A stretch of DNA of 60,977 nucleotides, counting the filler, from Rhizaria sp. SCN 62-66 (taxonomy: Eukaryota), in assembly GCA_001724265.1 (NCBI GenBank). It is 4 parts of 4 records of this genome, joined end to end, with 100 filler letters (N's around TTAATTAATTAA, not from the genome) between each part and the next. Parts side by side here need not be neighbours in the genome. Positions count along the whole stretch, not along the records: positions 1 to 15,032 come from MEDY01000498.1; positions 15,133 to 30,400 come from MEDY01000499.1; positions 30,501 to 45,415 come from MEDY01000500.1; 1 more part is not named here. One strand, written 5' to 3'. Shown here piece after piece: positions 4,488 to 42,882 of the stretch. Numbering within the stretch: the first letter of the stretch is position 1; each line of letters opens with the position of its first letter. The notes beneath the pieces are model-generated. The model was not told where the DNA came from, did no database searches, and was given only the letters and a program-made list of their open reading frames with translations. The translations under genes and the position numbers were made by a program.

Positions 4488-6764
4488 ATGGCTTCTCTTG
4501 GGAGTTAGGTAGTGACGAGTGCTGCCCCAGTCGCAACTGCTGCTGCAACTGCCGTTGCTGCCGCCGCTGCCTCTGTCGGGACTGTTCCTGGCTCGCGCGT
4601 CTGCTCCGCGGCGGAGTGGTTTGACGAGGTGACTGGCTATGACGAGGCGACCTGGCGCGAGACAGACTACCTTGCCCTCTTTCGCCGCCGTAGCAACGGA
4701 GACCTCCTCTTCCTGAACTCAACCTCCACGTACGCGATCTTCATATATAATATCTCACATATCATCATCTAGTCATTCTTGTGACATCTTGTGTTCGGAT
4801 ATCAGCACGCATCCACGTATAAAACTAGCTACCCTTGTTTATTCACTGTTTTTAATGTGGTTTGACTTCGTTGTACAGAGATCGCAACACGATCTACAAC
4901 TGCGGCTCGTTCTCCGTCCCCACCATCGCGACCCTCCGCTCTCTTCCCTCCGCGTCCGCCGCATCCGCCACGACTGCCACGGCCGCTGACACCGCTGTTG
5001 ACAACGCTGCCGCGCGCTCCGCGCGTGCGCCGCCCCTCGTGTTTGAGATCCGCACCGCGGCGCGCGACAGCATGCGTTTCGTCGACGTGGGCGCAGTGCA
5101 AGCGATGCCGTCTTCGGCGGGCGCGCTGTTTCAGGTCGCGTCCAACTTCAACGGCATTGAGGGCATCTCGTCGCAGGCGCACCCGGACCGCGCGTCGTAC
5201 GCCACGGACTGGCACTACGACTACACACAGGGCCCGCGCGCGTCCATCTTCGCCGGCGCCGCCGCGATGGCGCGCATATTCGCACCGTGGGCCTACCCGC
5301 TGCCGCTCATGGAGACCGACGCGCCTCAGGACTACGCCACTGCCACCGCCGCCGCCGCCGCAGCTGGAATGTCAAGTGACAACACCAGCGGCAGTAACGG
5401 CCGTGCGACGCCGCTGCCGTCGCGGAAGCAGGTGTACGAGTCAGTGGTTGAGGCCGCGATCGACGACGATTCCAACGAGCGTGCCGCCGTGCTTTTCGGC
5501 GCCCAGGGCGCGTACATCCCCACCGAGGCCTCGGCGGCGTGGCCCGCGCCCGGCCCGCGGCTGCGGATGTACCTGGGCACGCCCACGGGCGCGGCGCTGG
5601 CGCGGCGGGCGGCGCAGACCCGTGGGCGACAGGTCCAGGCACTGGGCGCGCTTGCCAAGGACTTCCCCACGCGCAACGGATACGTCATCTTGCCGAAGAA
5701 TGGGCACGCGCAGCAGCAGGACGGTGAGGCGGATGATGCCGGCGGCAGTGAGTCATTCCCGACCGAGAGCGATGCCGACCGTGCGCGGTGGGAGGAGAAG
5801 TTAGGCCGCGTGCGTGTGATGTGCCACCGGCGCTGCACCGTGACATTTGACTCTGTGCCCGGACAGCCCGACGCGCTGCGTGTGCTTGACGCGCACACAC
5901 TCGTGCCGGGCGAGGACTGCGCGCAGGTGCCCGCCGTTGTGGGCCACGAAATCGACCAGGTACGTTGACTTATCTATGAACATGATCATCATATGAGTTT
6001 GAATCAACGAATTGTTGTGGCTTTCCCGATTGATATGAACACCTGATACTTTACACTAATATATTTCACGTTATGTTTCTAACTTTCCTCCTGCAGGTGT
6101 TTGCGGCGGCGCTGAACGTTCGCGAGCCTAACTCCGACAACGCGGCCGACACGCCGCTCGTGGCGCGCAAGCGGCGCTTTCTGCTGCAGGCCGCCTACGA
6201 AGGGACGTATCTTGCCGCCAAGGAGGGCAACAACCAAGAGGTACGCGCTCAGGCCATCGCATTTGTGCTTGATATCAACGACTTTGAACAGCATCTGCTA
6301 AACAACATAAACTCACATCTTGTTTTCTTCTTTGTCTGTATATGTCGCAGCTTTACTTGACTCTTGTTGGCGGCGGCGTGTTTAGGAACCCGTTTTCGGA
6401 GGTTTTCGCGGCGATGGCGGCGGCGCACGCGCGCTGGGCGCCGGGGACGGCGTTGCGCAAGGTGGTGTTGCTGCTTTTCACTCCGGATCAAAACATCATT
6501 TCGGGCGTCATGGCCGCACTTAAGGGACAGGTACGTCAGATAGAGCACATTAAACTAAGTTATATTTTACACATCTCGATTTAGCATTTATCTACAACAA
6601 TCTTGCAGTTTATCTGTGCCTATTCGTCTCACATCACGTTTCTCATGCCATGTTTCTTGCTTCCCCCACGCTTTGCTCGCGCTTTATAGGGCATCGGGCA
6701 CGAGTGGGTGCACCACGAGGCCGGCCAGCGCCAAGTGCGTGCGTCCTGGGTGCCCACTAAGTGA
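4488..6764 (+). CDS. Uncharacterised protein with probable macrodomain/PARG-like fold (5 exons: 4488-4729, 4879-5959, 6097-6240, 6351-6530, 6690-6764); in-frame TAG at codon 7 (4506-4508)
   Basis: Four GTACG..AG introns splice in frame. Motifs seen: WFDEVTGYDE, GALFQVASNFNGIE, YDYTQGP, LLQAAYEGTYLAA and LYLTLVGGGVFRN, the last resembling the Gly-rich GxGxF loop of PARG/macro domains. The only in-frame ATG upstream of the conserved part is at 4488. Stop is TGA. Confidence 0.65.
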
Positions 6765-7222
6765 AAATAACGGAAAAAAACGCTTTGCAGCGCGCGTTGT
6801 AAGGTCGTCCAACGACGTTACACGTGAGTGAAACTGACATGTTTGGAAGGATACCTTGCGGGTCAGGACGTCCCGTTTGAAGACCAAAATTAGGTAGCAT
6901 AGTTAAAAAACTTTTTGAATAAACAAAAAAACATATTTTCACTCTAAAAATATGTACGATGAAATAAGAAATGGCGCAGATATGCGTTTGTGGTGGATGG
7001 TCGACTGGCCGAATGTCCGACGGTCACTTAGTGACAGCTCTGCATTCGGCGACGTGACTGCTGTCGGTCCCCTTTGCCCAGCGCGGCCGGCCTTCGGTCG
7101 GTGGGCTCAGTGGGCCGACGGGCAAGCAGCGCGCGGCGAGTCAGCGCGCGGGGGAAGGATCTGGTCCTTTTTGCTGCTCGATCCGACTCTTGACGAAGTC
7201 GTGCGTTGTTCGAGTGTGTAGT

Positions 7223-8915
7223 ATGTCCACTGAGACTGATTTTGAGGTGCAGAAATACGAGGAGTTCAAGCAGATGACTCCGGAGATGCTTTTTGAGGAG
7301 TTCAAGAAGCTGCAGGACGGTACGGTCTTCGGAAGATATTTCCCCCTTTGTTCTCGCTTCCCTCTTTATATCCTTGGATTCTATAATACGCATATGAGTC
7401 TCAACAGGTTATTTTCATTATTTGTGCCATCTTTTTTTCAAACAACTCACTTTCCGCGTCGCTGGGATGGTTTTTGTTTCCTTCTTTTCTTACAACTCTT
7501 CTAAGAGCGTCGTGCGTTTTATGAGGAGCGCGACCTGTTCGAGGCCGACCGCGCTGCCGAGCATCGCGAGGCGTCGCTCTTTGTCGGCAACGTCGACGTG
7601 ACGACGACCGAGGACGAGCTTCGTGGCTACTTCGAGCCCTACGGCGAGATCAAGAGCGTCAAGATCCTGCGCGACCGTGACGGCCGCTCCAAGCGCTCCG
7701 GCTTCGTCACCTACTTCTACACCAAGTGCTCCGAGACCGCGTGCCGCGAGCTCAACGGCAAGTACCGCGACAAGAGTGAGGCGCTCCCGCTTCACGTCCG
7801 CCCCTCGGACCGCCGCAACAAGGACTCCGCGCCCCGCGGCGGCGCCGCTCCCCACGGCGGCAACCAGATGTACCAACAGAATGCTGGCCACCAGGGCAAC
7901 TTCAACGCCGCCCCTTGTACGTCCCCGCCACGCTTCATTCGCTCATCAAAACAACGCCACCTTTATTAAAACACCTCGCTTCCTCTTCCCGCATCATCAT
8001 TTTCACTCCCTGCACTCATCTTGCTTCTCATTACTCTCTTTCCCTCCTGCCGCGCATGTCTCCTTTGCTTTGCCCCGCGTGCCTCTCCCACAGACGGCTA
8101 CCAGGCCGGCGCTGCCCCCTACGGCATGCAGCAGCAGCAGGGCGGCTTCCCCATGCCCCGCGGCTCCTACGGCCACGGCGCTGCTGGCGCAGGTGCCAAC
8201 GGCTACAACAACAACGCCGCCGCTGCCGCGGCCGCCGCTGCCCACATGGTCGCTGCTGGCGGTGCCCCCGGCGCCGGCTTCGGCGCTCCCCGCGCGGACT
8301 ACCCCCCGCAGCAGCAGCGCGCCGTCGGTCCCGGCTCTGGCGCGCGCGGCCCCCCCGGCGCGAACCTCTACATCAACAACATCGACCCCAACGTCCACGA
8401 GGAGACCGTACGTCGCAGCTACGCGTTCAGCTTTAAACATGCGCCAGAAACACGACATTGATATTATTCTCTGTTATGTTATTCTATCTTAGATTGCTAT
8501 GTTCCACGTGTATATTTGTACAATGTTGCATAAGCTCACTCACCGTTTTAATGATAATATCAATTTTGTTTACTCTTTTGCGCCACTATTCGGGCTTGTT
8601 GCGTATGAATGCGACTGTAACTCACTATTTCAGATGCTGAACCGCTTCCGCGAGTGCGGCAACGTCATCGGCTCGCGTCTGTTCCTGTCCCAGCGCTACG
8701 GCTTTCTGTCCTTCGAGACCGCCGAGGCGGCCCAGCTGGCCGTTGCGACTCTGAACAACTCGCCCGATTTCTCGCCCTCCGCGCTCGAGGTGAGCATCAA
8801 GGCGGACAACCCGCGCAAGCAGCACAACGGCCACGGCCATGGCCACGGCCACGGCCACGGCCATCACAACGGCGGCCACCACAACGGCGGCGCTGCGGGC
8901 AAGTTCCGTTACTAA
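7223..8915 (+). CDS. RNA-binding protein with two RRM domains (4 exons: 7223-7319, 7506-7916, 8094-8407, 8634-8915)
   Basis: RRM1 has RNP2 LFVGNV and RNP1-like RSGFVTY. RRM2 has LYINNI and RYGFLSF. The linker is Gly/Gln/Tyr-rich and the tail is His-Gly. Introns splice in frame; stop is TAA. Confidence 0.85.
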
Positions 8916-9109
8916 GCGCTCAATGCTGCTCCCGGTTGAGAAGATAAACCCGTGTCTGCAGCCGCCACTCAGCGCGCTCACATTCTCAGTGCTCGCAGAG
9001 AGCATGCAGATCACCGAGCAGCGTTTTGAAGTGTGTTGGTGACTAACGGCAATGACCGCGGCTGAGGCAACAACGGCAGCGGCGGCACTCTTGCACCGGT
9101 GCTCGATGT

Positions 9110-13700: not shown

Positions 13701-14085
13701 CGTGCACGTCACCCACCCCGGTCTCGTGTCGATGGAGGACTACGCGAAGCTCGCCGGCACCGTCCGCGGCTGGAACGGCGAGGCTGACCCGGCCAACATC
13801 ATCATGGTCCGCACGCAGGGTTGCGACGTGTTCGAGCAGATCTCTGATCAGCTCGCCGTGTCGCTCGAGAACCAGCCTGCGGCGCTGTACTTCAACAACG
13901 ACGCGCTCGTTGAGGGCGGCATCCAGACCCAGGCTGATGCCCAGGCCATCCGCGACTTTGTCGAGCTCATGACGTCGGCGACCGAGTTCGGCGAGAACCC
14001 CTCCGGCATGGGCGAGGAGATGGAGGGCGATGAGGGCTTCGGCGGCATGTTTGGCGAGGGCGACGACGAGGAGGACCAGGAGTAA
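10749..14085 (+). CDS. ~1010-aa protein: N-terminal beta-sandwich-like domain plus several thioredoxin/PDI-like domains lacking CxxC (3 exons: 10749-11744, 11912-12961, 13099-14085)
   Basis: Very strong codon bias and two GTACG..AG introns in frame. NVKVATASTFQRVVIDSANPVIVVID resembles the start of a PDI a' domain. The C-terminal LIVVHV...QPAALYF...AIRDFV resembles a Trx fold. Acidic tail; stop is TAA. Confidence 0.6.
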
Positions 14086-14839: not shown

Positions 14840-15032
14840 TTACGCCTTGATGGCGTTGATAGCAGCACGCTTCTTCTTGATGATCTTAGCAACGGACTTC
14901 TTGGAGAGCTTGCCGCCGCCAACCTTGCGCTCGGCAGTGGCGTAGTTGAGCTTGGCAATGTCCTGGAGGGCCTGGAGCTTGGTGGAGTCCTCCTGAGCGA
15001 CGTCGGTGACGGCGAGGACAGCAGCCTGCTTC
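14840..15032 (-). CDS. RPL7A: 60S ribosomal protein eL8 (L7a), C-terminal fragment cut by contig end
   Basis: KQAAVLAVTDVAQEDSTKLQALQDIAKLNYATAERKVGGGKLSKKSVAKIIKKKRAAINAIKA* matches the eL8 C-terminal pattern (A.TDV..ED...L...N......GGG.L..KS.A). Stop is TAA. Confidence 0.8.
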
Positions 15033-15132: not shown

Positions 15133-15183
15133 AAAGATTTACATTACGTGAATGGTTCAAAGTGTTTCAAAGTGCATCCGTAC

Positions 15184-16087
15184 CCTAACGTCGCGTTCAA
15201 AGCGAGCCAGCTGCGGCGGTAGCTGCTCTGCCCGTGTCCGCAGCTCAGTGAGCACGCTGCCCAGCTAGCGGCCCGTGTGATCCTTGTGCTCGCCGAACAG
15301 GTATGCGCATTGCGCGCACGCAGTGGTGTTGCAGGTGTCGCACCAGTTGACGATCTTAATCGGGTGTTCGTGTCGGTGGCAGTACTGTGCGAGTATCAAA
15401 GGTCCAAAGCAGTTGGGAAAAGAACATAATTAGATGAGCGAAGATGATGAAAAGCGTAGTCAGTAATATAAATGCGTGGTTATCGACAGAGAGCATCGTA
15501 ACGAACGTGATGCAGTACTGATACAACTCTGGTATCCAGTTCAGTATCATTCATTTCATGAGTAATTGGTGTTCAAGAATCACTTGCACAGACCGCATTT
15601 GTCAGTGTCAAAGAATGGCGATAATTACGGACACGCAGCCTTAGGGAAACGTACGTTGGGGTTGTTCGGTAGGATGTGAGTGGCGATTGCGGTGCCTGCT
15701 GCTGCTGTTGTTGCTGTTGCTGCTGCTGCTGCTGCTGCTGCCGCTGCTGCTGCTGCTGCTGCTGCGACGGCGGCTGGAACAGTCGCATTGGAAGGCCCTG
15801 AGTGGAGACTCGCGAGCTGCTTCTATAACAACAGATACAAATAGTCGCACATTTCAGTAGTGGCAATTGTTAGTCACATATTGTACACATATGACTTGGC
15901 ATTGCGACGTCTTCCAGACTACAACTCGTAGCTCTTTTGTGTTGTGCGTGTTGTCCAAGAAACTCGGGTCAAATTTGTATGGACGTACCATCAAGCAATC
16001 CACGCAGATCTCCATGGCTGGGCCTCCAGGAGATGCAACGTGAGACGCGCGACATAACTTGCAAGGTGTGCCCATATCAGTTGACAT
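15184..16087 (-). CDS. B-box zinc-finger protein, copy A (exons 16087-15989, 15822-15655, 15384-15184; continues beyond contig end); in-frame TAG at 15265-15267
   Basis: Exon 1 has CKLC...CVDC. Exon 2 has a poly-Ala tract. Exon 3 reads YCHRHEHPIKIVNWCDTCNTTACAQCAYLFGEHKDH, a type-2 B-box. All three donors are GTACG and phase 0. Confidence 0.7.
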
Positions 16088-28680: not shown

Positions 28681-29250
28681 GGTTCGCTGAGAGTGACATG
28701 GCATGCAGCGGCGGTAACGTACCTGTACGTGAGCGGATTCAGAAATCGGTTTGTAGTCGCTCTATCACGTGATGGTGGGTGTTCATATCGACTTCTAGTG
28801 ACCACGCACAATGAGAGTGACAAGTGACTGTGAGTTCAAAGAGTGGTATTGGACAAGAGGTTGAAAGCCGAGAGAAGGAGCAGATAACTTAATACAATGT
28901 ATACTGGTGAGTATCAATTAAAAGAACACCACCTTTGGCCACATCAACTTAAACCGTCATCAGCTACCTCGTTTCTCGCCTTGCTCACGGTCATTTCAGC
29001 ACTGTGGGCCAGGAAACGGGAGGCCTAATCGCCAAAGAAACATCGATCTTTTGCGTAGTTGATCATCAATACATGTATAGCCCGGTTGCATGTGACATAG
29101 TTCTAAATATTACATCTTTGTATTTTTTTGCCCCGGTAATTCCTATGTGTAAACAATAATCGACGGCTCAAATTCCCGAACCGACTTCAACCCGTCCACC
29201 GTCCACGCTCTCTCCTGCATCTCAAACTATGTTCCTACTCCTAGAGACCA

Positions 29251-30400
29251 ATGTCAACTGATATGGGCACACCTTGCAAGTTATGTCGCACGTCTCACGT
29301 TGCATCTCCTGGAGGCCCAGCCATGGAGATCTGCGTGGGTTGCTTGATGGTACGTCCACACAAATTTGGCCTGAGTTTCTTGGACAACCCGCCTCGACTG
29401 CACACAACTGAGCTACGAATTCTATTCGGGAAGACGACGCAACGCCAAATTATTTGACTAACAATCACCTCTCTTGAAATGTGCGACTGGTTGTTTTTGT
29501 TGTTATAGGCTCAACTCGCGCTTCTCGACTCAGGGCCCTCCGATCTGACTGTCCCGTCGCCTTCCGCCGCTGTGGCAGCAGCAGGCACCGCAATCGGCAC
29601 TCACATCCTACCGAACAACCCCAACGTACGTGTTCCTATAGCTGCGCGTCCGTAATTATCGCCATTCTTCGACACTGACAAATGCCGTTTGTGTAAGTGA
29701 TTCTTGAACACTGACTACTCATGAATGATACTGACCTGGATACCATAGTTGGATCAGTACTGTAAGCTCAGCTTATCACGTAAGCTACAATACGCTGTAT
29801 CGATAATCGTACTTTCTATTATCTGCGCTCATTTAATTCATTCTGCACCCCCGAAATCCATCATGTTCTTCTCTCAAAACTGCTCTGACCTTTGATGCTC
29901 GCATAGTACTGCCACCGCCACGACCACCCGATTGAGATCGTCAACTGGTGCGACACCTGCAACACCACTGCGTGCGCGCAATGCGCATACCTGTTCGGCG
30001 AGCACAAGGATCACACGGGCCGCTTGCTCAGCAGCGTGCGCGCTGAGCTGCGGACACGCGCAGAGCAGCTACCGCCGCAGCTGGCTCGCTTTGAACGCCG
30101 TTGCAGAGCAATTTAGGCGATGTGTCTAATTGCTATTTAGAAGAAAATACCAAGCAAAATTAGCATCTGAAAATGAAACAAACACATCTCATATGCAATC
30201 CGTTCTTGAATCGACTCTGTACTTGCAACTTAGGAGCGACACGTCGATATGACTCACTTCAAGACCGAGGTCGATGACACGCATACGGCTCTGCTTGACC
30301 GGAGCAAGTCCTTCACCGCCCAAGCCGCCGCCCCGCTTGCGACAGTGTTGTCGCAGCTCAAGCTGTACACTGCGCAGTCAATGAGTGCTGAAGAGAAGAG
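29251..30400 (+). pseudogene. B-box/coiled-coil protein, copy B (exons 29251-29349, 29509-29625, 29907-~30100, 30234->30400); third splice donor apparently lost; truncated by contig end
   Basis: Collinear paralog of 15184-16087 (YCHRHDHPIEIVNWCDTCNTTACAQCAYLFGEHKDH). Where copy A has GAC GTT AGG|GTACGG, copy B diverges with no GTACG donor. A downstream coiled-coil-like exon ERHVDMTHFKTEVDD... follows an AG at 30232-30233. Confidence 0.55.
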
Positions 30401-30500: not shown

Positions 30501-30502
30501 CT

Positions 30503-31984
30503 AAGGTTCCTTCCAAGCAGCAGGACTCTAAGACTCCTTCTAAGCAGCAGGACTCTCAGCAGGACTCTAAGGTTCCTTCTAAGCAGCAGGACTCTCAGCA
30601 GGACACGAAGGTTCCTTCGAAGCAGCAGGATTCCACTAAGCAGCAGGACTCCAAGGTGCCTACTAAGCAGGACGACACCAAGACTCCTACCAAGGACGAC
30701 ACCAAGACTCCTACCAAGGACGACACCAAGACTCCTACCAAGGACGACACCAAGACTCCTTCCAAGGACGACACCAAGACTCCTACCAAGGACGACACGA
30801 AGGACTCGAGTAGCTCTCTGAACCTGAACAGTATCGTGGTCGACAGCAACGGCATCCGCTGGGGCTACCGCATTCAGAACGCCACGACCATCGACAAAAA
30901 CGGTAAGAAGGGCTGGAAGTGCGGCGGCAAGTGCCTCGACAAGACCAAAAACCAGTGCAACGCCGTCGGTGGCTTCGTCAAGAACCTCTGCGGCGGAGGC
31001 AACAACAACCAGTGCTGCCCCACGGTGATCAAGTACCGCATCGACGACAGTGCCGCTGACAAGGCTGCCGCTGAGAAGGCCGCTGCCGAGAAGGCCGCTG
31101 CTGAGAAGGCCGCTGCTGAGAAGGCCGCTGCTGAGAAGGCCGCTGCTGATAAGGCCGCTGCTGATAAGACCGCTGCTGATAAGAAGGCCGCTGATTCTCT
31201 GTCCGCCGCCGAGAAGGCTGCTGCTGAGAAGAAGGCTGCCGCCGAGAAGGCCGCCGCTGACAAGAAGGCTGCTGCGGACAAGAAGGCCGCGGACAAGAAG
31301 GCTGCCGCTGACGCCAAGGCTGCTGAGAAGGCTGCGAAGAAGGCCGCCGAGGCTCAGGCCAAGGCTGATAAGAAGGCTGCCGAGGCCAAGTCTGCGGCTG
31401 AGAAGAAGGCCGCCGCTGACGCTAAGGCTGCCGCTGACAAGAAGGCTGCTGAGGCCAAGGCCGCTGCCGACAAGGCTGCTGCTGCCCAGGCTGCCGCTGA
31501 TAAGGCTGCTGCCGACAAGAAGGCTGCTGCTGACGCGAAGGCCGCTGCCGACAAGAAGGCTGCCGATGCCAAGGCCGCTGCCGACAAGAAGGCTGCCGAT
31601 GAGCGCGCCTCTCTTGCTGGCAAGTCCACCATCACCTCCAACACCGTCACCAACGCGGACGGCTCCACGGTTGTGACGACCATCACCACGACCTACAACG
31701 CCGACGGCAGCAAGACGGAGAAGACCGAGACGCTGACCACGACGCCCACCGGCCCGTGGTTGCCGAGCAACAAGTCCATCACCGACGCAACGGGCAAGTT
31801 CCTCCGCTGGGAGTGCAACGGCTACTGCATGGACACCAAGAACCGCTGCGACACGGGCTCCTACCTGCCTGATCTCTGCCCTGGCGCGGCCGCTAACGTC
31901 ATGTGCTGCTCCAAGATGCACCGCACGGGCGGCGCCACAACCAAGGCCTCTCGCACCATCACGATCCCCGCGCCCAAGTTTTAA
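30503..31984 (+). CDS. 5'-truncated repetitive protein: KVPSKQQDS/TPTKDDTK repeats, Cys-rich module, long (A)AAEK/AADK helix, second Cys-rich module
   Basis: The frame is open from the contig start. It contains 24-nt tandem repeats at about 30660-30800, 15-nt repeats at about 31050-31600, and two modules of the form C..x.C.D.K..C...G....LC.G......CC. Stop is TAA. Confidence 0.75.
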   Translation, partial: KVPSKQQDSKTPSKQQDSQQDSKVPSKQQDSQQDTKVPSKQQDSTKQQDSKVPTKQDDTKTPTKDDTKTPTKDDTKTPTKDDTKTPSKDDTKTPTKDDTKDSSSSLNLNSIVVDSNGIRWGYRIQNATTIDKNGKKGWKCGGKCLDKTKNQCNAVGGFVKNLCGGGNNNQCCPTVIKYRIDDSAADKAAAEKAAAEKAAAEKAAAEKAAAEKAAADKAAADKTAADKKAADSLSAAEKAAAEKKAAAEKAAADKKAAADKKAADKKAAADAKAAEKAAKKAAEAQAKADKKAAEAKSAAEKKAAADAKAAADKKAAEAKAAADKAAAAQAAADKAAADKKAAADAKAAADKKAADAKAAADKKAADERASLAGKSTITSNTVTNADGSTVVTTITTTYNADGSKTEKTETLTTTPTGPWLPSNKSITDATGKFLRWECNGYCMDTKNRCDTGSYLPDLCPGAAANVMCCSKMHRTGGATTKASRTITIPAPKF

Positions 31985-32704: not shown

Positions 32705-35700
32705 TTAGCCGTCCATGAACGCCTCGATGTCGATGGTCGTCGCGTCCGGCAGCTCCTCCAGATCGTCGCTGCCGTTGCGGCCGCCCGCGCGGCTGCTGGA
32801 GCGCGCGCCGACCACGTCCGCGTTGCTCCCGCTCGTCGCACGCGCAGTGAACGTGTTGACGCGCGTCACGGCGCCGTACACGCTGTTGCTTCTGCCGCCG
32901 CTGCCGGCCGCGGTGGGGCTGCCGGCAGTGGCGCCCCGGGTGACCGCGCCCGACGCGCTGCCGGCGCCCGCGTTGTTGCTGTTGCTGTTGCTGTTGATGT
33001 TGCTGTAGCTGTTGTAGTTGTTCATGTTCGTCGAGGAGGTGATGACCGGGGAGCCCGAGGCTGTGGAAGGCGCAGTGCGCGCGAGCGTGGCCGCCGAGAC
33101 CGCGGCGGCGACGGCGTCGCTCGACAGCGGCACAGGGGCCACCGCGCCGCCCGCCGCCGAGAGCGCCGGCGACGGGACCACCGACGGCGCAGCAGCAGCT
33201 GCGGCGGCGGCGCCGGCGGCAGCGGAGGCCGGAGAGCCCGCGGCGGCGACGGCCCAGTCCGTGGCGACGACGCCGAGGCCCTTGACGGCGCGCGCGGCGG
33301 CGCGGGGCGCGTCGGTGGCGCAGAGCACGGCGCCCAGCGTCACGCGCGCGGTTGCGGGCTGACGGCGCAGCGCGCGCGCCCACCCGCACGCGGCCGACCC
33401 GGCGCAGCGCGCAGGAGCCGACGCAGAGGCGGAGACAGAGGCAGACGCAGAGGCTGAGGCTGAGGCTGAGCCGGCCACAGTGATTGCAGAGTCAGTACCA
33501 GTCGCAGTGGCGGCGGCGTCGGAGGCGGAGATAGCGGGGGTGATGACGAGCCAGTGTGTGACGCGCTTGGCCGCGGCGGGCGCGACGCCGGCGGGCCATG
33601 CAATGCCTCCGATCGCCGCGGCGGCGTCAATGCTCGAGTCGGCGCTGGCGCTGGCGCAGACGGGGTCGCCCGCGACCGCGGCGACGATGGCGGGCAGAGG
33701 GAGCCCGGCGACCATTGCGGCGGACTCGGCCTCGGCGCGCGCGAAGCCAGCGATGGCGGCGGCGACGGCGGCGTCGGCGTCGGTGTCCACGGCCACCACT
33801 AGCACGCCCCACACGGCGCGCGCGCACGCGGCTGCGGCCGCCGCGGCGGGGGCCGACACCGGCACGGGCATCAGTGCACGCTCGACCAGTGCGCGCGCGA
33901 CGGTGCGCAGCGCCGCGCGGGTCTGCGCCGCGCCGGCCTCCGCATCGGCCTCTGCCTTGGCGGCGCGCGCGGCCTCCGCGTCCTCCTCGTCTTCGTCCTC
34001 GTCTTCGTCCTCGTCGTTGTCTTCGTCGTCGGCGTTGTCCGCTGCAGCTGTGTCGCCGTCGTTGTGGTCGTCGCCGTCATCGTCGCTGTCGTCCTCCTCT
34101 TGCTCGAGCTCGGCCGGGCGAGGCGACTTAGCTTTCTGCTTGCGCGCCTTCTTGGCCGCCGCCGCAGCCGTCGCCGCGTGCTTGCGCGCCGCCCGCGCCG
34201 CGGGGACCGTGGGCAGCAGCGCGGGCGTGCCGCCGCCGGTGACGGTACGCGCGAGCGCGGGCGCCAGTGCCGCCCACGAACGAGGCCACTGCAGACTGAG
34301 CGGCAGGACCGAGCCCGCGAACAACGCGCTCGCGCCACCGCTGCCGCTGTTGTTGCTGTTGTTCGCGGCCGACTTCATCATCGTCATCGTCGTCATGACG
34401 CCGGCGCTAGAGGCGTTGCCGTAGCCAGCGGCAGTGCTGGCGTCCGCGGCCCCCGCGCCGGCGTCGCTGCCCGACGAAGTCATGTTGAGGCCGGCGCCGG
34501 CGCCGGCGCCGCTGTTTCTCCGCGCGGCCGCGTGGCTGAAGTAATAGCGCAGCCGCAGCGACGCGAGCGCGAGCAGCGCGGCGCGCAGAGCCGGCGAGCG
34601 GGGCGCCGAGGCCACGGCCACGGCCACGCGGCGCGGCAGCGGCACGGGCACCAGGGTGCCGGGGGTTGTCGTCGCGGCCGCGCCCACGCCCGCGGCCATA
34701 AGGCACCCGGGGCTGCCAGCGCCAGCGCCATAGCCAGAGCCAGAGATGGAGCCGGAGGAGGATCTGGAGACGGAGCCGGCGTTGATGCCGCCCGCGGTGG
34801 CGGTAGCGTTGGCGAACGAGAGCGCGATGGGCGAGAGCAGCAGCGCGAGAGCGGGCATGAGCACCGTCACAGTCGACTTGGCGTACAGAGGCTTGCGCGC
34901 GCGCGCGGCGGCCGCGGAAGCCGCGGCGGTGGCCGAGGTGGAGGCCGAGAGCGTGCGCGACGAGCCCGAGGCTGAGAGCACGACGGAGCGCGTGCGGGAC
35001 ACCGAGACCTCGCTCTCGCTCTCACCGTGCTGCGTCGCGATGCTCGTGCTGTCGTCGGCGGACGCCTCCGCGTCGTCGCCGTCAGCGCCGCCGTCGTGGT
35101 TGTTGTGGTTCGCCTCGTCGTCGTCGTCATCATAGTCGTCGTCGTCGTCGTCGTCGAACTGCTGGATCATGGCCGGCGGGTACCGGCCTGCGCCCGCCGC
35201 GGCTGCGGCCGCCACCGCTGCGGCCGCCGCGGCTGCGGCGAGGGCAGGGTGCTGCGGGGGGTCCAGCGCAAGCATCGCGGGCGCCGCGGCGGCGGCCGAG
35301 GCGGCAGCAGCGGCGGCAGCAGCAGCAGCGGCGGCCGAGGCAGCGGCGGCAGCGGCGGCGGCGGCGGCGGCCGAGGCCGAGGGGGGTGCGATCGCAGACG
35401 CCGCGGCGGCCGCGGCGACCGAGGGCGTGGCGATGCTCGCGCGCTTGAACTTCTGCTTGAGCGCGCCGGCGAGCCCGCCGAGCTTGGCCTTAAGCGTCGA
35501 GTGGCCCGTCAGCTGCGGCGACGCCGCGGCGGCTGCGGCTGCGGCCGCGGCATCGGCGTCGGCGGCCGCTGCGGCTGCGGCTGCGGCGGCCACGTCAGCG
35601 ATGGCGTCGGGGAAGGCCTGCGGGGAGAAGAGGTCCATCGCGGCGGCGGCAGCAGCGGCGCCCGCAGCGGCGGTGGCCACGGCGGCCGCAGAGGCCGAGT

Positions 35701-38700
35701 TGCCAGCGCCGCCGCCGCCGCTGTTGTTGATGTTCGTGTCGTAGACGGGGGGCGTGGCGCTGACGCCGCTGGTGTTGGAGCTGCTGCCGGCGTTAGTGGT
35801 GCTGCCGAGGTTGTTGCCCATAGTAGGGACATGGGGGATCATCACCGGGGCCAGGTTCGCGGGCGGCTGCACCCCGCTCGAGCTCGAGGTGTTGCTGCTG
35901 CTGTTGCCGAGCAGGACCGAGCCGAGCCAGCCGCGCTTCTTGACCGGGACGCCGGCCGCGATGGCGCACTCATCGCACTTGCTGACGTTGCCGCCCAGCC
36001 CGGTCCCGGGCCCGTGGCCCGCGCCGCCCAGCGCGAGGCCGGCCGCGGCGGCGAGCGCGTGCAGCGCCGCGAAGGGCGCGGCGGCGAGCGCGACCGAGGG
36101 GAATTGGTGCTCGATCAGCAGCATCGCCAGCGCCAGCGCGGGCCCGCCCGGCTGCACCGCCGGATCCAGGAGCGGCGCGGCGGCGCGGCTCAGCGCGGCG
36201 GGCGCGGCGTTGGCGCCGCCGTGACCCGAGCCCGCGACGCTGCCGTCGGCGCCCGCGCCAGACTCGGACGCAGCGCCGTCGTCGTTGCCGCTCGCGTTCG
36301 CAGCGGCGGCGGCGGCGGCGGCGTGGGACAGCGTGCCGCTGCTGGTGCCGGCGGGCGCGTTGGCGGGCGCGGCGGGCGCGTCGCCGTAGACGCAGATACG
36401 CAGCGCGCCCTTGGCGGGCGTGAGCGCGGCGATCATGTCCGCGCAGTCCATGGGCGACGAGAGGATCTGCGGCGGCACGTTCACGGCGCCCGGGAGCCGC
36501 GCCTGCGCAAAGCGCGCGGGCGCGCGGCAGTCGAGCAGCAGGTGGTGCGGGCGGCCGGGCGCGGCGACGGCGGCGGCGGCGCAGGCGGCGGCGACGGCGA
36601 CGGCGGGGGACACGGCGGGCGCGGCGGCGGGGTCGGGTGCGTTGTCGAGTGCGGCCGTCGTAGCGGCGCCGACACCCTGCGCGATGAGCTCGTCCGCAGA
36701 CAGGATCAGACAAGGCCGGTTGGCCAGCGTGGCCGCCACGGCGTCGGGCGAGTGCGCGTCGGCGCCGCTGCTCGCGGACCCGGCGCCGTTGCTGCCGCCG
36801 CCGTTGCCGCCGGTGCTGTTGCTGCACTGCGGCGCGGGGTAGGGCGGGTTGACGCCGAGCATGAGCGTGACGCGGTGCAGTGCCAGCAGCGCCGACACGG
36901 GCGTGACGGCCCGCAGCGAGCGCGCGCGCGACAGCGCCGCGTCGACTTGCGACGGCGAGCGGAACACGAGGCCCTTGGTCACGAGCTCCGGCAGCGACAC
37001 CTTGGGTTCCGAGAAAATGGCCTCGCGCGCCGAGATGAGGAGCGCGAGCGAGATGAAGATGTGGAACAGCGGGTCGTTGCTGAGCTCGAGGAAGATGGCG
37101 TCCCACAGCGCCGCGGTCGCGGGGATGGTCGCCAGGCTGAACGAGACGAAAAATCACAAAAAAGGTGATATATATCACAAGAGGAATGAGAGTTCATGAG
37201 ATCTTTTTAAGTAAATTATGAATTAGTCAAGTTGTCAAAAGTATTCGATTGTTTTAGTCCATGGTGCGCGAATTATACTTCGCAGCGCAATATATCCAAT
37301 CTAGAGACGTACCGCGCACGCGAGGCGTGAAGCGTGAGCACCCACGAGGACGCATACGCCTCGGGCCCCAGGTCCGAGTCGTCGAGGTGCGCCGCCAGCG
37401 TCGGGTCCAGGTACTGCAGCAGCAGCCGCAGCAGCGAGAGCGAGCACTGCAGCGGCGCGTAGTCGTCGCACGCGTACAGCGCGCAGACGGTGCGTGACAC
37501 GAGCGAGCGCAGCGTGAGCAGCATGGGCAGCGAGCAGGCCGTCAGGTGGGACGTCAGGCCGCGCAGCAGCAGCGCGGACTGCGGCGAGAACGGGGCCGCC
37601 GCCGCCGCCGCTGCTGCGACAGCGCCAGAGCCAGCGCCAGCGCCGGAGTCGGAGGACGCGGCAGGGACGACCGAAGTGTTGTGGCTGTGGCTGTTGTTGT
37701 AGTGGGCCGGCAGCGCGAGCCCAAAGGTGGGCCCGTAGCCGGTGAGCGCGGCGGCGTCGAGCGAGAGCACGGGGTCCACAAAGCAGCTCTTGGCGACGGG
37801 GACGCCGGCCGTGACCGTGGTCGTCAGAGTCATGTTGAGCGCGCCGAGCGCGCTGCCCGTGCCCGCCGCGGTGAGGAATGTGGCGCTGCTGCTGGTCGTC
37901 GTCGCGACCGTGCTGCTGCCGCCGACATCGCCGCCGGCAGCGTTGGTGCTCCGGCCATCGCTGCCGTTGTTGTTGTGGTTACCGCTGCTGCCGTCAGCGG
38001 CCGCGCCCTGGACGGGGCTGTGGCTGCGGCTGTGCACAGTCACCGTCGTCGTCGTCGTCGTCATCGTCGTCGTCGTCGCCGTCACGGTCACCTGATGTTG
38101 CGACTGCGACAGCGGCTGCAGGTGCTGCTTGTAGATGGCGGGAAACATGTACCCGCTGACGCCGACGCTGCCGAGGCCGCCGCTGCCTCCGCTGCCGGCC
38201 ACCGCCGCCGCCGAGGCCGCGGCCGCCGAGGCTGCCGTGAGCTCAGCCAGCGCCAGCGACATGAGTCCCTCGAGCGGGGACGGGGACGGGCTGGCGCCGA
38301 GACTGGCCGCAGTGCCGCTGCCGGTCAGTGAGGGCGCGCCGGGGCAAGGGTAGAGGCTCGAGGTGCCGAGGCTCTTGGCGACGCACGGCAAGTACGACAG
38401 CAGGATGGGCGCCAACAGGTAGTTTAGGCCCTGCTTGTAGGCCACTGCGCCCGCGACCGAGCCGCAACCAGCACTGGCGCTGGCGCTAGCAGTGGGGGAG
38501 ATGCACCCGTTCTTAGCGGTCCCCGAGCTGCTGCTGTTGCTGCTGCTGCTGGTGTTGTGTGGGTAGGCAAGGACGCAGAAGCGGAGGAGCGCGAGCTGGA
38601 TCTGGTGCAGCAGCGGCGGGAAGGCGAAGAAGGGCGCGAACGGCAGCGTGCGCGGCGCGTCGGCGGCGACGGTGCGCAAGTTCGCGCGGTCACACGGCCG

Positions 38701-41700
38701 CATCGGCTCGGGCTCCACGAGCTCCAGGGGCTCCAGGGCCGCAGGGGACGCACTCGCAGGCACTGTTGCAGGCGCAGGCACAACAGCCGCACTGCCGGGG
38801 TTGTCGCTCTTGGCGGCAGCGGCAGCGTCGCCACTGGGGTCCGAGGGCGAGGAAGTGAGCTGTGACAGCGATAGAGAGGGGGCGGGGGCCGAGGCCGAGG
38901 AATAGGACGCCGGCGGCGACAGCGTCAGCGACTGCGTTGTCGACTGAGACTGTGTCGACTGTGAGGCCTGCGACTGCGAGGCGGGCAGCGAGATCACCGC
39001 GCCAGCATCCACACTCGTGTTGGCGCCGTTTGAACTCGCACCAGAGCCAGAAGCAGAGCCAGAGCCGGAGCCGGAGCCGGAGTTGGAGGTCGAGTGCAGC
39101 GCGAGCGCCGCGGCGGCCGCGGCCGAGGCGGCGGCCTGCTTGCGGTGCTCCCACAGCAGCGTCAGTAGCGACAACAGCGGCGCCGGCGGCCGGCGGCTGC
39201 CCTGGCCCAGTCCGCCGCCGCCGCCGCCACTGCCGCCGCTGCGGCCGCCGGAGCCGGGACGCGAGCCGGAGCCGGAGCGGGCGCTGTGGCGGCTGCGGGC
39301 GCCGCTGCGGGCGCTGCTGAGGTCGGTGCCGACCGAGTCCGCGTCGTAGTCGTCGTCGTCGTCGCCGTCGTCGTGACCGGCGCCGGTGTCGTTGTCGGCG
39401 TTGTCATCGAAGTCGACGTCAAAGTCGCTGCCGGCGGTGTCGTCCCCGTTCGCGTTGCCGCTGCCGCTGCCACCGTTGCTGTTGCTGTTGCTATTGCTGT
39501 TGCCGCTGTTGGCGCCGTTGCGCGAGCTGCCGGCGCGCCGCGTGCGGCTGTGGCGGCCGCCGCGGCCACCGCGGCCCACCGCCACGTTGCTGTAGTGGTT
39601 GCGGCCCGAGTTGTCGGCATTGTCGCCATCGCCGTGGCCGCCCAGCAGCGCCTCGGCCAGCCCCGCGGCCGCCGTGGAGTCGTCGTGCGCGCCGTGGCCA
39701 TGGTCGTGGCCGTGGCCGCTGACGTTATGGGCGCGGTCCCCGTCGTGCTCGGCGTCCACGTCGTGGTCGGTGAAGCTGTTGCTGTTGCTGCGGGGCGCGT
39801 TTCTGCCGTTGCCGCTGAGCGCGCCGGCCTTGCTGCTGTTGTTGTGAAGCGAGGACGGTGACAGCAGCGCTTCGTGGTCGTGGCTCAGACTGACGTCGAG
39901 CGCGCCGACGCTGAGGCCGACGCCGCTCACGCCTGCGGCGGCGCCCGCAGTAGCGCTCGTGCCGCCGCTGCCATTACCGCTGCTGCCGTGGGCGCCGTTG
40001 CGGGAGCGAGTCCGGCTCTGGCTGCGGCTGCGGCTCCGGCTGCGGCTCTTACGGCGCGCCGACGACGCCTGTTGCTGCTGCTGGTTGTTGTTACCGCTGT
40101 ACTGCAGCGACTGGGACGGGGACGCGAGCGAGGGCACCGACGAGAGCAGGTCGCTGAGTCCGCTGGCGTGCCCGAAGCCCAGTTGCGGCACCGCGCCGTG
40201 CCGCGGCGAGTCCAGCGCTGCCGCCGCCGCCGCTGAGGATGGGGTGGCGAGGTGTGACTGTGAGCCCGAGCCGAAGCCCGAGCGGCGGCGCCGGTGGTGC
40301 TCACGCCCGCTCCGCCCCCCGTGGCCGTGACCGTTGCCGTCTCTGGTGTCGCGGCCCGTGCTGTCGTAGTCGTTGGAGCGCGCGGTCGAGTCCCAGTTGA
40401 CCGTCGGGGTCATGCCCAGATTGTTGCTGCCGCTGCTGGGACCGTGGGCCGAGGCCGAGTCGAGCAGGCTGCTGACGGGCACCTCGTCGCCTTGATGTGG
40501 CTGCCCACGGTCGCCTCCCAGCATCAGCCCCGCGCCGGTGGCCGGCCCGCGGGCCCTGGCGGGGCCGGCGCCGCTGTGATGCCGACGCGCGCGGCCCCTC
40601 TGGCTCGCCGTGCTCGTCGTGTTGTTGCTGTTGCTGGGAGCGCCGTTGCTACTGTTGCTATGCCGGGGGCGGGGGCGCGGGCGCGGGCGCGGGCGCGCGA
40701 AGGCGCGGCGGAGTGCGGCCGAAGCGGTGTAGAGGGCGAAGCCCCACCACACGTCGTCGTCAAAGCCGCACGCGCACGCGCACTGACACCCGAAGCCGCT
40801 CACCGCTGCAGCAGCAGTACTGGCGGCCGAGGTGTTTGCACCTGAGCTCGTATGCGCGCTGCCGAGGTTGGTCGGCGAGGGAGCGGGGGAGACGTTGGGG
40901 GAGCTGGACGCCGAGCGGGCGTTGTTGGCGTGGTTGCTGTTGTTGCAGAGACATGGGCACGCGCACACCGCCTCGGCCCATAGCAGCGAGGCGGGGGCGG
41001 CGCCGGCCAGCGCGCCCCACACGGCGCCGCGGAGGCGCGCGGGCACGCCGTGCGAGGAGCAGAGGCGGACCACGGTCGACTGCGACTGCAGCTGCCGCGG
41101 CGGCAGCGGCAGCAGGCGCACGCGGCGCGGCCCGCGCGCGCTGCCGGCGTGAGAGGACGCGTTTGCATTAGTATTCGCGCCGTCGGGCTCGGCGCTGCTG
41201 TTGGTCGCCGTGAGCAAGTTGTTGTTGCTGCTGTTGTTGTTGTCAGAGCAAGCGCTGGGGCCGGCGGGGCAGGGGCGGAACGAAGGCGGCAGCAGCCACG
41301 CCAGCGGGCCGGAGACGGCGTCGGCGGTGAAGCCCCCGGCACCTACACTGACACTCGCACTAGAGTTGGCGCTGGAGCTGGCCGCAGTGGCGCTGGCGCT
41401 CACGTTGTTGCTCGGCCCCACCGGGACCAAGGCGGTGCTCAGGTTGCAGCTGTTGCTGCTGCTGTCGGTCAGTGGGTTGGAACTGGCGCTGACGCGGGCG
41501 CGGGCGCGGGCGACGACGCGCGCGACGGCGGCGGCGGCGGCGGGCGTGGCAGGAATGGGCAGCGCGTCGCCGAGCAGCAGGAACGAGGCTGTGAGCCCGG
41601 TCAGCGTGATCGTGGGCACCGCCGCGGGCACCGTGGGTGCGGGCAGGGTGACCGTGGGCAGCGCAGCACCGTGCGCGGCAGCGGTGAAGCCCGCGTCGTG

Positions 41701-42882
41701 GGCTGCATCATCGTTGTTGTTGTCGCCGTCAAGCGACGACGTCGCCTGTTGCTTCGCGCCCGATTGACCGTTGCCGTTGCTGATGTTGATAGCGCTAGTG
41801 CCGACCGCCCACGTCCTGGCCTCGGCGACGGCGGCGGCAGCGTCCGGCGTGGCGAACAGCTCGTGCACCAGCGAAAGCTCGATGGACCAGGGCGCGTCGC
41901 AGGAAAGCCACGCCATGCGCGGGGCAGCGGTCGCCGCGGCCACGGCGGCGGCCACGGCGGCCGCGCTGTGGCTGCGCGCGGCGAGGTCGGCGCTGGCGCC
42001 GGTGCTGTCTCCATAGGTGAAGCCGGAGCCTGAGGCCGAGGCGGACAGCGGGCTGGTGGCTGTGAAGGCGCTGGTGTTGACCGCAGCAGCCGCAGCAGAA
42101 TTGCCGCTGTTGTTGTTATTGCTAGTGCCAGGGGTGGGGACGGGCGAGCTGACGACCGCGGGCGAGGTGAAGTGCTCCAGCGAGAGCGTGTGCGGCGCCA
42201 GACCAGTGTAGTCAGTCCCCGCCGCGCTCGCACTGGTCGTTGCAGTCCCACTGGCAGCGGCTCTCGCAGTGGCGGCGGTGGGGGTGGGGATCTGTCCGAC
42301 GAGAACACCGTTCGCGCTGATCCCAGAGGCGGAAGCCACCGCGTTCGCCGCCGCAGAGGCCGGGACATGGAGTGTCTGCAACTGCGACTGACTGGACGCG
42401 GACGTGTACGACGACGCGAGCGTGGAGGCGTCCTCGGCGCCCGCCGCCGCCGCGGCCGCGTTGGCCGTCGCCGCAGCGGCCTCGGTGTCGACCTTCTTGG
42501 CCAGCGCGACGAGCTCGAGCCAGGCGGCCGAGGTGGCGTCGAAGATGATCCCGTCGGGGCGCGCCGCGACGGCCGCGCGTAGCAGCCGCTCGCGATAGTC
42601 GGGCAGCGTTGTGGCGCGCGACGCGCAGCGGGCCGCGATCTGCGGGTATGTGAACCGCTTCAGCGCCGAGGCGGGGATTAGTGCGAGGGCCTCGGGGGAC
42701 AGAGGGCGGATCGGGCCGCTGGGGGTGTCCTGGAACTAAGGCACCGCGGCCGAGGCGGCGCCCGCGGCGGCGGCTGAGGTCGGCAGCGACGCTGACATGG
42801 GCGCAGAAGCTGATGTTGTGGTAGCTGTCGCTGCAGCCTGAGCTGAGTTCGGCGTTCGCGGACGCGAGGGCGGGCGCGACAT
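32705..42882 (-). CDS. TBC (Rab-GAP) + rhodanese-domain protein, TBC1D23-like, about 3333 aa (2 exons: 42882-37313, 37136-32705); in-frame TAG at codon 49 (42736-42738)
   Basis: TBC motifs: GVPARLRGAVW, VAADAPRTLP, YKQGLNYLLAP, LLLQYLDPTLAAHL...YASSWVLTL and ALWDAIF..DPLFHIFISLALLISARE. Rhodanese motif: LLLDCRAPARFAQARLPGAVNV. One GTACG..CAG phase-2 intron; stop is TAA. The frame continues about 500 nt upstream of the ORF-track start, through a TAG, to ATG 42882. Confidence 0.8.

What the first reader, a model, noticed from the sequence alone, without database searches (positions are those of the whole stretch)
4488..42882. Probable non-standard nuclear genetic code: UAG read as an amino acid while UAA/UGA stay stops
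Seen in sequence: four genes on three independent contigs contain one in-frame TAG in otherwise intact CDS. They are at 4506-4508 (+, PARG-like), 15265-15267 (-, B-box), 18762-18764 (-, CCDC61) and 42736-42738 (-, TBC/rhodanese). None of the intact gene models needs an internal TAA or TGA. All 17 definable gene ends are TAA (8915, 14085, 14840, 27810, 31984, 32705, 44888, 45319, 46299, 46529, 56957) or TGA (2068, 3896, 6764, 16509, 53560, 56098); none is TAG. Established knowledge: UAA and UAG almost always change meaning together in nuclear codes, and UAG-only reassignment is known from only a few eukaryotes (e.g. Leu in a rhizarian, Gln in the fornicate Iotanema, some ciliates). Inference: this protist has such a split code, which implies a tRNA with anticodon CUA and an eRF1 that no longer recognises UAG.
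Basis: partly seen in the sequence, partly recalled or inferred. Interest (0 to 1): 0.93.

Follow-up and report, generated by a model that had tools for sequence, protein, structure and literature searches.

The report
Probable UAG sense codon, wastewater protist
An uncultured GC-rich eukaryote from wastewater and bioreactor metagenomes appears to read the stop codon UAG as an amino acid, probably glutamate, while still ending genes with UAA and UGA, which would be a rare kind of genetic-code change.

Summary
The window is four eukaryotic contigs joined by N spacers. All four in-frame TAGs exist at the stated places. In 34 coding segments (14,192 codons) there are 4 TAG, 0 TAA and 0 TGA. All 17 listed gene ends are TAA (11) or TGA (6).

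- **CCDC61 (18762-18764) is the strong case.** The TAG sits inside the conserved head domain. It is present unchanged in contigs of two other studies. Known differences in one of those strains are mostly synonymous downstream. The aligned column is Glu in 120 of 133 homologues that have a residue there, including a close relative.
- **The TBC and "PARG-like" TAGs are supportive.** There is no later ATG for 273 and 138 coding-like codons, and no intron donor upstream.
- **The B-box TAG is weak.** It lies in a duplicated, fast-evolving gene whose other copies carry TTG.

"Only TAG is seen" is not discriminating, because 70% of one-step nonsense paths give TAG here. No tRNA, eRF1 or RNA evidence could be obtained.

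Verdict: UAG is probably a sense codon (about 0.68), most likely Glu.

The parts
18762..18764 (-). In-frame TAG, codon 40 of CCDC61/VFL3-like gene (strong case)
   Evidence: The PDB alignment to the CCDC61 head domain runs across it. It is unchanged in X3 and X4 contigs. The aligned column is Glu in 120 of 133 homologues with a residue, and in the close relative P0146.
16509..18881 (-). CCDC61-like gene: ATG 18881, intron 16807-17007, TGA 16509-16511
   Evidence: The X4 strain has 6 differences in the last exon: 5 synonymous and 1 Ser>Thr.
42736..42738 (-). In-frame TAG, codon 49 of TBC/rhodanese gene
   Evidence: It is followed by 273 codons without ATG and with coding score +129.6. The other five frames score far lower, and four of them are negative. 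There is no GTANG donor between the TAG and 43100.
32705..42882 (-). TBC (RabGAP) / rhodanese gene, ending in TAA 32705-32707
   Evidence: Pfam RabGAP-TBC and a weak Rhodanese hit. ORFs.
4506..4508 (+). In-frame TAG, codon 7 after ATG 4488 of gene G3 ('PARG-like')
   Evidence: Exon 1 (4488-4729) joins exon 2 (from 4879) in frame. It is followed by 138 codons without ATG, score +44.5. There is no donor motif upstream.
4488..6764 (+). Gene G3, family unresolved (weak microbial-PARG lead), ending in TGA 6762-6764
15265..15267 (-). In-frame TAG in B-box zinc-finger exon, copy A (weak case)
   Evidence: The B-box2 alignment crosses it. It is not seen in X3, X4 or X12, where all contigs read TTG. 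The gene is duplicated.
15133..16087 (-). B-box gene copy A (3' end cut by the contig end)
30024..30026 (+). TTG (Leu) in B-box copy B at the position of copy A's TAG
29000..30400 (+). B-box gene copy B, an inverted duplicate of copy A on the same contig
   Evidence: Inverted repeats I1-I6, 75-95% complementary. Alignment.
8913..8915 (+). TAA end, RRM protein gene
14083..14085 (+). TAA end
14840..14842 (-). TAA end of eL8 (L7a) gene
   Evidence: The alignment reaches residue 261 of 262 of a solved eL8. Also.
27808..27810 (+). TAA end of 2659-codon kinase ORF
31982..31984 (+). TAA end
44886..44888 (+). TAA end of RABL2 gene
45319..45321 (-). TAA end of eL36 gene
46278..46299 (+). TAA end of KBL gene (46278-46280, or 46297-46299 in another frame)
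46529..46531 (-). TAA end of 2229-codon coiled-coil ORF (donor-like GTAAG overlaps it)
56957..56959 (-). TAA end
2066..2068 (+). TGA end
3894..3896 (+). TGA end
53560..53562 (-). TGA end (GTACG 25 bases upstream, so less certain)
56096..56098 (+). TGA end

Best explanation
**What it is**
The four contigs come from one uncultured, GC-rich, intron-bearing eukaryote found in wastewater and bioreactor metagenomes. [quoted passage not shown]

**Shown**
- TAG sits inside functional coding sequence, and it is rare: 4 in about 14,200 codons.
- The CCDC61 TAG persists in independent samples.
- No gene end in the window is TAG.

**Inferred**
- A tRNA with anticodon CUA reads the codon.
- eRF1 no longer, or only poorly, recognises UAG.
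- The amino acid is most likely glutamate, which would arise by one anticodon change from tRNA-Glu(CUC). This rests on one 90%-conserved Glu column. Gln is second; Leu is unlikely but not excluded.
- The low codon frequency suggests an early stage of capture of the codon.
For: **1. CCDC61**
- phmmer alignments to solved CCDC61 head domains (E 8e-34) run across the TAG in one frame.
- The orthologue of a close relative, P0146, is 85% identical in the head domain and 60% overall. It has Glu at that column.
- Among the 150 best homologues the column is E in 120, a gap in 17, S in 5, Q in 4 and D, A, N, M in 1 each. None has Leu.

**2. The TAG is not an assembly error**
- A 1235-base contig of run X3 (another study) covers it with 0 differences.
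- A 1363-base contig of X4 (a third study) covers it with 5 differences, all upstream of the ATG.

**3. Selection after the TAG**
- The X4 strain differs at 6 places in the last CCDC61 exon: 5 synonymous and 1 Ser>Thr.
- One further known difference, at 17558, is Gly>Arg.
- That is 5 synonymous of 7 known, p about 0.02 if 28% of random changes were synonymous (my estimate).

**4. The TBC gene**
- 273 codons follow the TAG before the next ATG, with coding score +129.6. The other five frames score -279 to +29 and hold 2-9 stops.

**5. Gene G3**
- Exon 1 joins exon 2 in frame only in the TAG-bearing frame.
- 138 ATG-free codons follow the TAG, score +44.5.

**6. No intron can remove these TAGs**
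- 10 of 10 introns read have a GTACG donor.
- No GTANG lies upstream of TAG 4506 or TAG 42736.

**7. Gene ends**
- 0 of 17 are TAG, 11 are TAA and 6 are TGA.
- Two TAA ends are fixed by eL8 and eL36 C-termini.

**8. Assembly quality**
- ORFs of 2659, 2229, 1939 and 1482 codons are uninterrupted.

**9. Precedent**
- UAG-only codes with UAA and UGA stops are described in PMC5304391 (abstract and sections 6 and 8 read) and PMC11687900 (passages read).
Against: - The sample is small: four TAGs, and only one in a well-conserved column.
- The B-box TAG is unconfirmed elsewhere. All contigs of X3, X4 and X12 at that place read TTG. It lies in a duplicated gene with 5 non-synonymous against 3 synonymous differences between copies, so it may be a dead copy.
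- TTG would point to Leu rather than Glu.
- Seeing only TAG is expected for random nonsense changes about 0.24 of the time.
- TAG is far rarer here (0.03% of codons) than in the described UAG-sense lineages: 384 UAG in 71 genes in the rhizarian exLh, and about 8% of Gln codons in Iotanema (PMC5304391, sections 6 and 8).
- The KBL gene seems to lack about 30 C-terminal residues or is frameshifted, so not every gene is intact.
- 8 of the 9 further X4 differences in CCDC61 exon 1 were not listed by the tool, so they could not be classed.
- 0 of 17 is only p of about 0.02-0.17, depending on the assumed TAG share.
- No tRNA(CUA), eRF1, RNA read or peptide was seen.
Confidence: 0.68

Rival explanations
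1. The code is standard, and these few genes depend on leaky or programmed read-through of UAG by near-cognate tRNAs. UAG would still end other genes elsewhere in the genome.
For: - TAG is very rare in coding sequence: 4 in 14,192 codons.
- Only 17 gene ends could be examined.
- Two of the four TAGs are followed by C, a context I recall as leaky in eukaryotes.
Against: - The four contexts share no motif. The next bases are G, C, C and T.
- Codon 40 of an essential structural domain is an odd place for regulated read-through.
- 0 of 17 gene ends are TAG.
Confidence: 0.15
2. The code is standard, and the TAGs are nonsense alleles, young pseudogenes or consensus errors in a metagenome assembly.
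For: - 70% of one-step nonsense paths give TAG with this codon usage, so 4 of 4 TAG is unremarkable.
- The B-box TAG is in a redundant, fast-evolving duplicate and is absent from the other runs.
- The KBL gene looks truncated or frameshifted.
Against: - The CCDC61 TAG is identical in contigs of two other studies.
- Downstream differences between strains are mostly synonymous.
- The region upstream of the TAG still aligns with homologues.
- Four ORFs of 1482 to 2659 codons carry no frameshift.
- Four of about 20 genes each hit by exactly one nonsense change and no frameshift is unlikely.
- It does not explain 0 of 17 TAG ends.
Confidence: 0.12
3. The TAGs never reach the ribosome as UAG. They would be removed by unusual splicing, changed by RNA editing, or skipped by downstream initiation.
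For: - TAG 4506 and TAG 42736 both end in a possible acceptor (..TTAG|).
- No RNA contig covering a TAG-bearing copy was found.
Against: - There is no GTANG donor upstream of either TAG, while 10 of 10 introns use GTACG.
- The flanks are GC-rich and coding-like, unlike the AT-rich introns.
- Downstream initiation would delete 59 residues of the CCDC61 head domain, or 145 to 322 coding-like codons in the other genes.
Confidence: 0.05

Closest known systems
Rhizarian exLh (Sainouroidea): UAG = Leu, UAA and UGA stops (PMC5304391; abstract and sections 6 and 8 read)
   Same: - UAG is in frame in conserved genes.
- Terminators are only UAA and UGA, with UAA dominant: 56 against 15 there, 11 against 6 here.
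- It is a non-ciliate protist.
- The RABL2 tree gives a weak hint of a rhizarian neighbourhood (72/99 support).
   Different: - UAG is abundant there (384 in 71 genes) and sits at conserved Leu.
- Here it is rare, and the one conserved column is Glu with 0 Leu among 133 homologues.
- Leu appears only in the B-box paralogues.
Iotanema spirale (Fornicata): UAG = Gln, UAA the main stop (PMC5304391; abstract and section 8 read)
   Same: The code is split, and UAG is a minor codon.
   Different: - UAG is about 8% of Gln codons there. Four TAGs here would be about 0.6% of Gln codons.
- The aligned column is Gln in only 4 of 133 homologues.
Ciliate cases: phyllopharyngeans (UAG = Leu or Gln), Protocruzia (UAG = Gln), Oligohymenophorea sp. 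PL0344 (UAA = Lys, UAG = Glu); also Scotinosphaera (UAG = Ser) (PMC11687900 passages read; PMC10553269 search listing only)
   Same: - UAG is reassigned apart from UAA.
- PL0344 shows that UAG = Glu is workable.
   Different: - This organism has GC-rich exons, long AT-rich GTACG introns and large low-complexity proteins. From recall, that is unlike ciliate macronuclear DNA.
- In PL0344 UAA is also a sense codon, whereas here UAA ends 11 of 17 genes.
UAR = Glu codes (peritrich ciliates, Blastocrithidia nonstop) (PMC11687900 passage; PMC12153298 abstract in a search listing)
   Same: Glutamate is the likely meaning of UAG.
   Different: Both UAA and UAG are sense codons there. Here TAA is the commonest terminator.

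Membership tests
Nuclear code with UAG sense and UAA/UGA stops | In-frame UAG at positions inside conserved coding sequence, supported by independent sequence data | tested here: met
   - CCDC61: the alignment crosses the TAG, and the TAG is present in X3 and X4 contigs.
- TBC and G3 are supportive.
- B-box is not confirmed.
- Only DNA contigs support this. No RNA was seen.
Nuclear code with UAG sense and UAA/UGA stops | UAG absent from bona fide termination codons | tested here: met
   0 of 17 ends in the window. The sample is small, and two ends are less certain.
Nuclear code with UAG sense and UAA/UGA stops | UAA (and UGA) still terminate | tested here: met
   There are 11 TAA and 6 TGA ends. 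The eL8 and eL36 C-termini fix two of the TAA ends.
Nuclear code with UAG sense and UAA/UGA stops | A tRNA gene with anticodon CUA | not testable with these tools
   ARAGORN found 0 tRNAs and Rfam 0 matches in the window. No genome is held.
Nuclear code with UAG sense and UAA/UGA stops | eRF1 N-domain changed so that UAG is not recognised | not testable with these tools
   There is no eRF1 gene in the window and no genome.
UAG = Glu | UAG falls at conserved Glu columns | tested here: inconclusive
   One column only: Glu in 120 of 133 homologues with a residue and in the close relative.
UAG = Leu (as in exLh, NCBI table 16 pattern) | UAG falls at conserved Leu columns | tested here: inconclusive
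   - B-box paralogues have TTG, but that column is variable (Phe in KAP1).
- The CCDC61 column has 0 Leu among 133 homologues.
UAG = Gln (as in Iotanema) | UAG falls at conserved Gln columns | tested here: inconclusive
   The CCDC61 column is Gln in 4 of 133 homologues. No other informative column exists.
Programmed stop-codon read-through | A shared downstream context or motif at the read-through stops | tested here: not met
   The next bases are G, C, C and T, with no common motif by eye. RNA structure was not examined.

The most novel reading that the evidence does not exclude
A non-ciliate, uncultured wastewater protist uses a nuclear code in which UAG alone means glutamate while UAA and UGA remain stops. 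I did not find this combination in the papers and passages I searched and read. The codon is caught at a very early stage of capture, at about 0.03% of codons.
Probability: 0.35. Interest if true: 0.85.

Novelty: new member of a known kind. Interest (0 to 1): 0.72.

Why it matters
**Rarity.** The passages I read name fewer than ten eukaryote lineages in which UAG and UAA have separate meanings (PMC5304391, PMC11687900).

**What a new origin would add**
- Another independent origin outside the ciliates, in an organism that recurs in wastewater and bioreactor samples over about ten years.
- A possible new amino-acid assignment for a UAG-only change (Glu).
- A case with very few UAG sense codons. 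That is the stage at which the codon-capture and ambiguous-intermediate models make different predictions.

**Practical consequence.** Gene callers that use the standard code will split or truncate genes of this organism in metagenome annotations.

Tried and rejected

- Whole genome: none is held.
- Sequencing-run search: busy twice, then answered. No RNA holder is listed for the CCDC61 stretch.
I laid contig 2 only, so TAG 4506 and TAG 42736 were not checked in other runs.
- The RNA-labelled runs gave no contig over the CCDC61 TAG. X12 contigs over the B-box region read TTG and include intron sequence, so they say nothing about expression or splicing.

**Searches with no result**
- tRNA and Rfam scans of the window: nothing found.
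- Crude ORF-length gain per stop codon: uninformative in GC-rich DNA.
- First coding-score threshold: too strict; recalibrated.
- TBC N-terminus protein search: no hit, because low-complexity words saturated the candidates.
- TBC N-terminus scan of metagenome contigs: no relative found.
- Pfam, PDB and NCBIfam for gene G3: nothing. The Atlas gave only a weak microbial-PARG lead (0.76).

**Searches that fell short**
- RABL2 scan: it found the same organism (L001, 100%), but that contig stops 225 bases short of TAG 42736. It also found a relative's spliced transcript (L002) that ends in TGA.
- Taxonomic placement: the Atlas and cluster look-ups gave no names. A RABL2 tree gave only a weak neighbourhood to Plasmodiophora and Spongospora.

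**A reading I dropped**
At first I read the "divergent" B-box contigs as a related strain. I rejected that once the inverted duplicate was found. They are family variants.

**Not seen**
Supplementary files of the papers were not seen.
Full report
**What the window is**

The 60,977 bases are four contigs: 1-15032, 15133-30400, 30501-45415 and 45516-60977. They are joined by N runs around a 12-base spacer.

All four contigs look like one eukaryote:
- Exons are GC-rich, with G+C about 78% at third codon positions.
- Introns and spacers are AT-rich.
- All 10 introns I read start with GTACG, and they occur on all four contigs.

Genes recognised:
- a CCDC61/VFL3-like gene
- RABL2
- a Not3 N-terminal domain, a protein kinase and a TBC RabGAP
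- an RRM protein
- 2-amino-3-ketobutyrate CoA ligase, KBL
- eL8 and eL36
- a B-box zinc finger

The window holds no tRNA or Rfam family.

The same DNA occurs in public bioreactor and wastewater metagenome runs. Ten listed runs from eight studies hold at least part of it.

**The observation**

I defined 34 coding segments totalling 14,192 codons. They contain 4 TAG, 0 TAA and 0 TGA. The segments were chosen open for TAA and TGA, so those zeros are partly circular.

A scan that treats the three stop triplets alike asked for coding signal in the same frame on both sides. It found 2 TAG (18762, 42736), 0 TAA and 1 TGA. That TGA lies antisense to a low-complexity gene.

Other TAGs inside long TAA/TGA-open frames lie in AT-rich introns or upstream regions. 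Several are the AG of a splice acceptor.

All 17 gene ends carry the stated codon, 11 TAA and 6 TGA. G+C drops downstream in 17 of 17. Qualifications:
- One end is ambiguous between two TAAs.
- Two ends (46529, 53560) have a donor-like motif nearby.
- Two ends are fixed by homology to eL8 and eL36 C-termini.

**How much is chance?**

With this codon usage, 70% of all one-step changes to a stop produce TAG. Four of four being TAG therefore has probability about 0.24 under random nonsense mutation. Zero TAG among 17 ends gives p of about 0.02 if TAG normally ended a fifth of genes, which is my assumption. The case has to rest on the individual genes.

**CCDC61 (TAG 18762-18764, codon 40): strong**

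*Position in the protein*
- Alignments to three solved CCDC61 head domains (E 8e-34 to 1e-28) run through the TAG in one frame.
- A search of 1.8 billion representatives found P0146, the orthologue of a close relative. It is 85% identical in the head domain and 60% over 653 columns. It has Glu at the TAG column.
- Across the 150 best homologues the column is Glu in 120, a gap in 17, Ser in 5, Gln in 4 and Asp, Ala, Asn and Met once each. That is 90% Glu among the 133 with a residue, and no Leu.

*Independent sequence data*
- Logan contigs of two other studies cover the TAG.
- X3 covers it with a 1235-base contig and no difference.
- X4 covers it with a 1363-base contig and five differences, all upstream of the ATG.

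*Selection downstream*
- The X4 strain differs at six places in the last exon: five synonymous and one Ser>Thr.
- One more listed difference, at 17558, is Gly>Arg.
- Eight further X4 differences in exon 1 were not listed by the tool, so I could not class them.

A gene that keeps its frame, keeps homology on both sides of the TAG and evolves mostly by silent changes is being translated through that codon.

**TBC/rhodanese gene (TAG 42736-42738, codon 49): supportive**
- 273 codons follow before the next ATG, with coding score +129.6. The other five frames score -279 to +29 and contain stops.
- The flanks are GC-rich on both sides.
- No GTANG donor lies between the TAG and 43100.
- I could not find relatives of this N-terminus.
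- An identical contig from another metagenome (L001) stops 225 bases short of the TAG.

**Gene G3 (TAG 4506-4508, codon 7): supportive**
- The exon holding ATG 4488 and the TAG joins the next exon in frame through a GTACG...AG intron.
- 138 coding-like codons without an ATG follow.
- No donor motif lies upstream.
- The label "PARG-like" has only a weak Atlas lead (0.76). Pfam, PDB and NCBIfam gave nothing.

**B-box gene (TAG 15265-15267): weak**
- The B-box2 alignment crosses the TAG, which sits at a variable column (Phe in KAP1).
- The gene is one arm of an inverted duplication on contig 2: copy A at 15133-16330 and copy B at 29000-30400.
- Copy B has TTG there.
- Every contig of X3, X4 and X12 over that place also reads TTG, in at least two further sequence variants.
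- The copies differ by 5 non-synonymous and 3 synonymous changes in this exon.
- This TAG may be a nonsense allele of a redundant copy. If it is translated, the TTG neighbours hint at Leu, against the CCDC61 evidence.

**Meaning of the codon**

The single conserved column says Glu. GAG to TAG is one change, and so is TTG to TAG. I weight the constrained, single-copy CCDC61 above the fast-evolving B-box family. Given a sense reading, I put Glu at about 0.55, Gln about 0.2, Leu about 0.1 and other residues the rest.

**Mechanism**

This part is inferred, not shown. A tRNA with anticodon CUA reads the codon, and eRF1 has lost or weakened its UAG recognition. The first could arise from tRNA-Glu(CUC) by one change. 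These follow the mechanisms discussed for the known cases (PMC5304391, section titles and passages; PMC11687900, passages on suppressor tRNAs).

**Against the reading**
- The sample is small.
- TAG makes up 0.03% of codons, far below the described UAG-sense lineages (PMC5304391, sections 6 and 8).
- The KBL gene lacks about 30 C-terminal residues or is frameshifted, so some damage or assembly error exists.
- There is no RNA or protein evidence.

**Comparison with known cases**

UAG-only reassignment with UAA and UGA stops is known in these lineages:
- the rhizarian exLh (Leu) and Iotanema (Gln) (PMC5304391)
- phyllopharyngean ciliates (Leu, and Gln twice), Protocruzia (Gln) and Scotinosphaera (Ser)
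- a ciliate with UAG = Glu together with UAA = Lys

The last two lines come from passages of PMC11687900.

My four literature searches listed no report of such a code in a wastewater or activated-sludge protist, nor of UAG = Glu with UAA kept as a stop. Papers outside the held library and all supplements were not seen.

The organism is not placed. A RABL2 tree puts it with unnamed environmental sequences, weakly near Plasmodiophora and Spongospora (72/99 support). Its CCDC61 and RABL2 genes suggest that it builds cilia or flagella. That link to cilia is from recall.

**Verdict**

My probabilities are:
- UAG sense codon with UAA and UGA stops: 0.68
- read-through under a standard code: 0.15
- nonsense alleles or errors: 0.12
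- removal before translation: 0.05

It is a new member of a rare known kind, and possibly a new variant (UAG = Glu only). Interest 0.72.

Noticed in passing
window 15133-16330 (-) and 29000-30400 (+): The B-box gene is present as an inverted duplicate at the two ends of contig 2. Exons are about 95% alike, and the CAG tract of copy A is 51 bases longer. Other runs hold further variants at higher depth (11.5 and 26.4 against about 5), so it is probably a small gene family.
   Followed up: partly
window 46236-46299 (+): The KBL (2-amino-3-ketobutyrate CoA ligase) gene stops aligning at residue 369 of 400 of solved homologues. Only 8 more codons follow in frame, while another frame reads a KBL-like C-terminus. 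This looks like a deletion of roughly 50 bases with a frameshift, either a damaged gene or an assembly fault.
   Followed up: partly
window, all four contigs (e.g. 4730, 5960, 6241, 6531, 17007, 43608, 44010, 45685): Intron donors are uniformly GTACG (10 of 10 read). Introns are AT-rich and about 100-250 bases long, in sharp contrast to the GC-rich exons.
   Followed up: partly
window 42882-43598: The TBC gene and RABL2 are a divergent pair about 700 bases apart. L002, a relative's contig at 80% protein identity, is a spliced RABL2 transcript that confirms the exon 2/3 junction and ends in TGA.
   Followed up: partly
window 2-2068, 19831-27810, 32705-43092, 46529-53218: The proteins are extremely rich in Ala, Ser, Gln, Asn and Asp/Glu runs. 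The ORFs are very long (up to 2659 codons), and recognisable domains fill only a small part of them.
   Followed up: no
window 8916-10740: About 1.8 kb between two + strand genes has no clear coding signal but many simple repeats (CA, CT, GTT/GCT runs). It may be a long UTR or a spacer.
   Followed up: no
window 30503-31981 (+): This gene encodes tandem KQQDS/KDDT(K)TP and AEKAAA repeats, flanked by two Cys-rich modules. It ends in TAA and has no family match beyond a weak HC2 hit.
   Followed up: no
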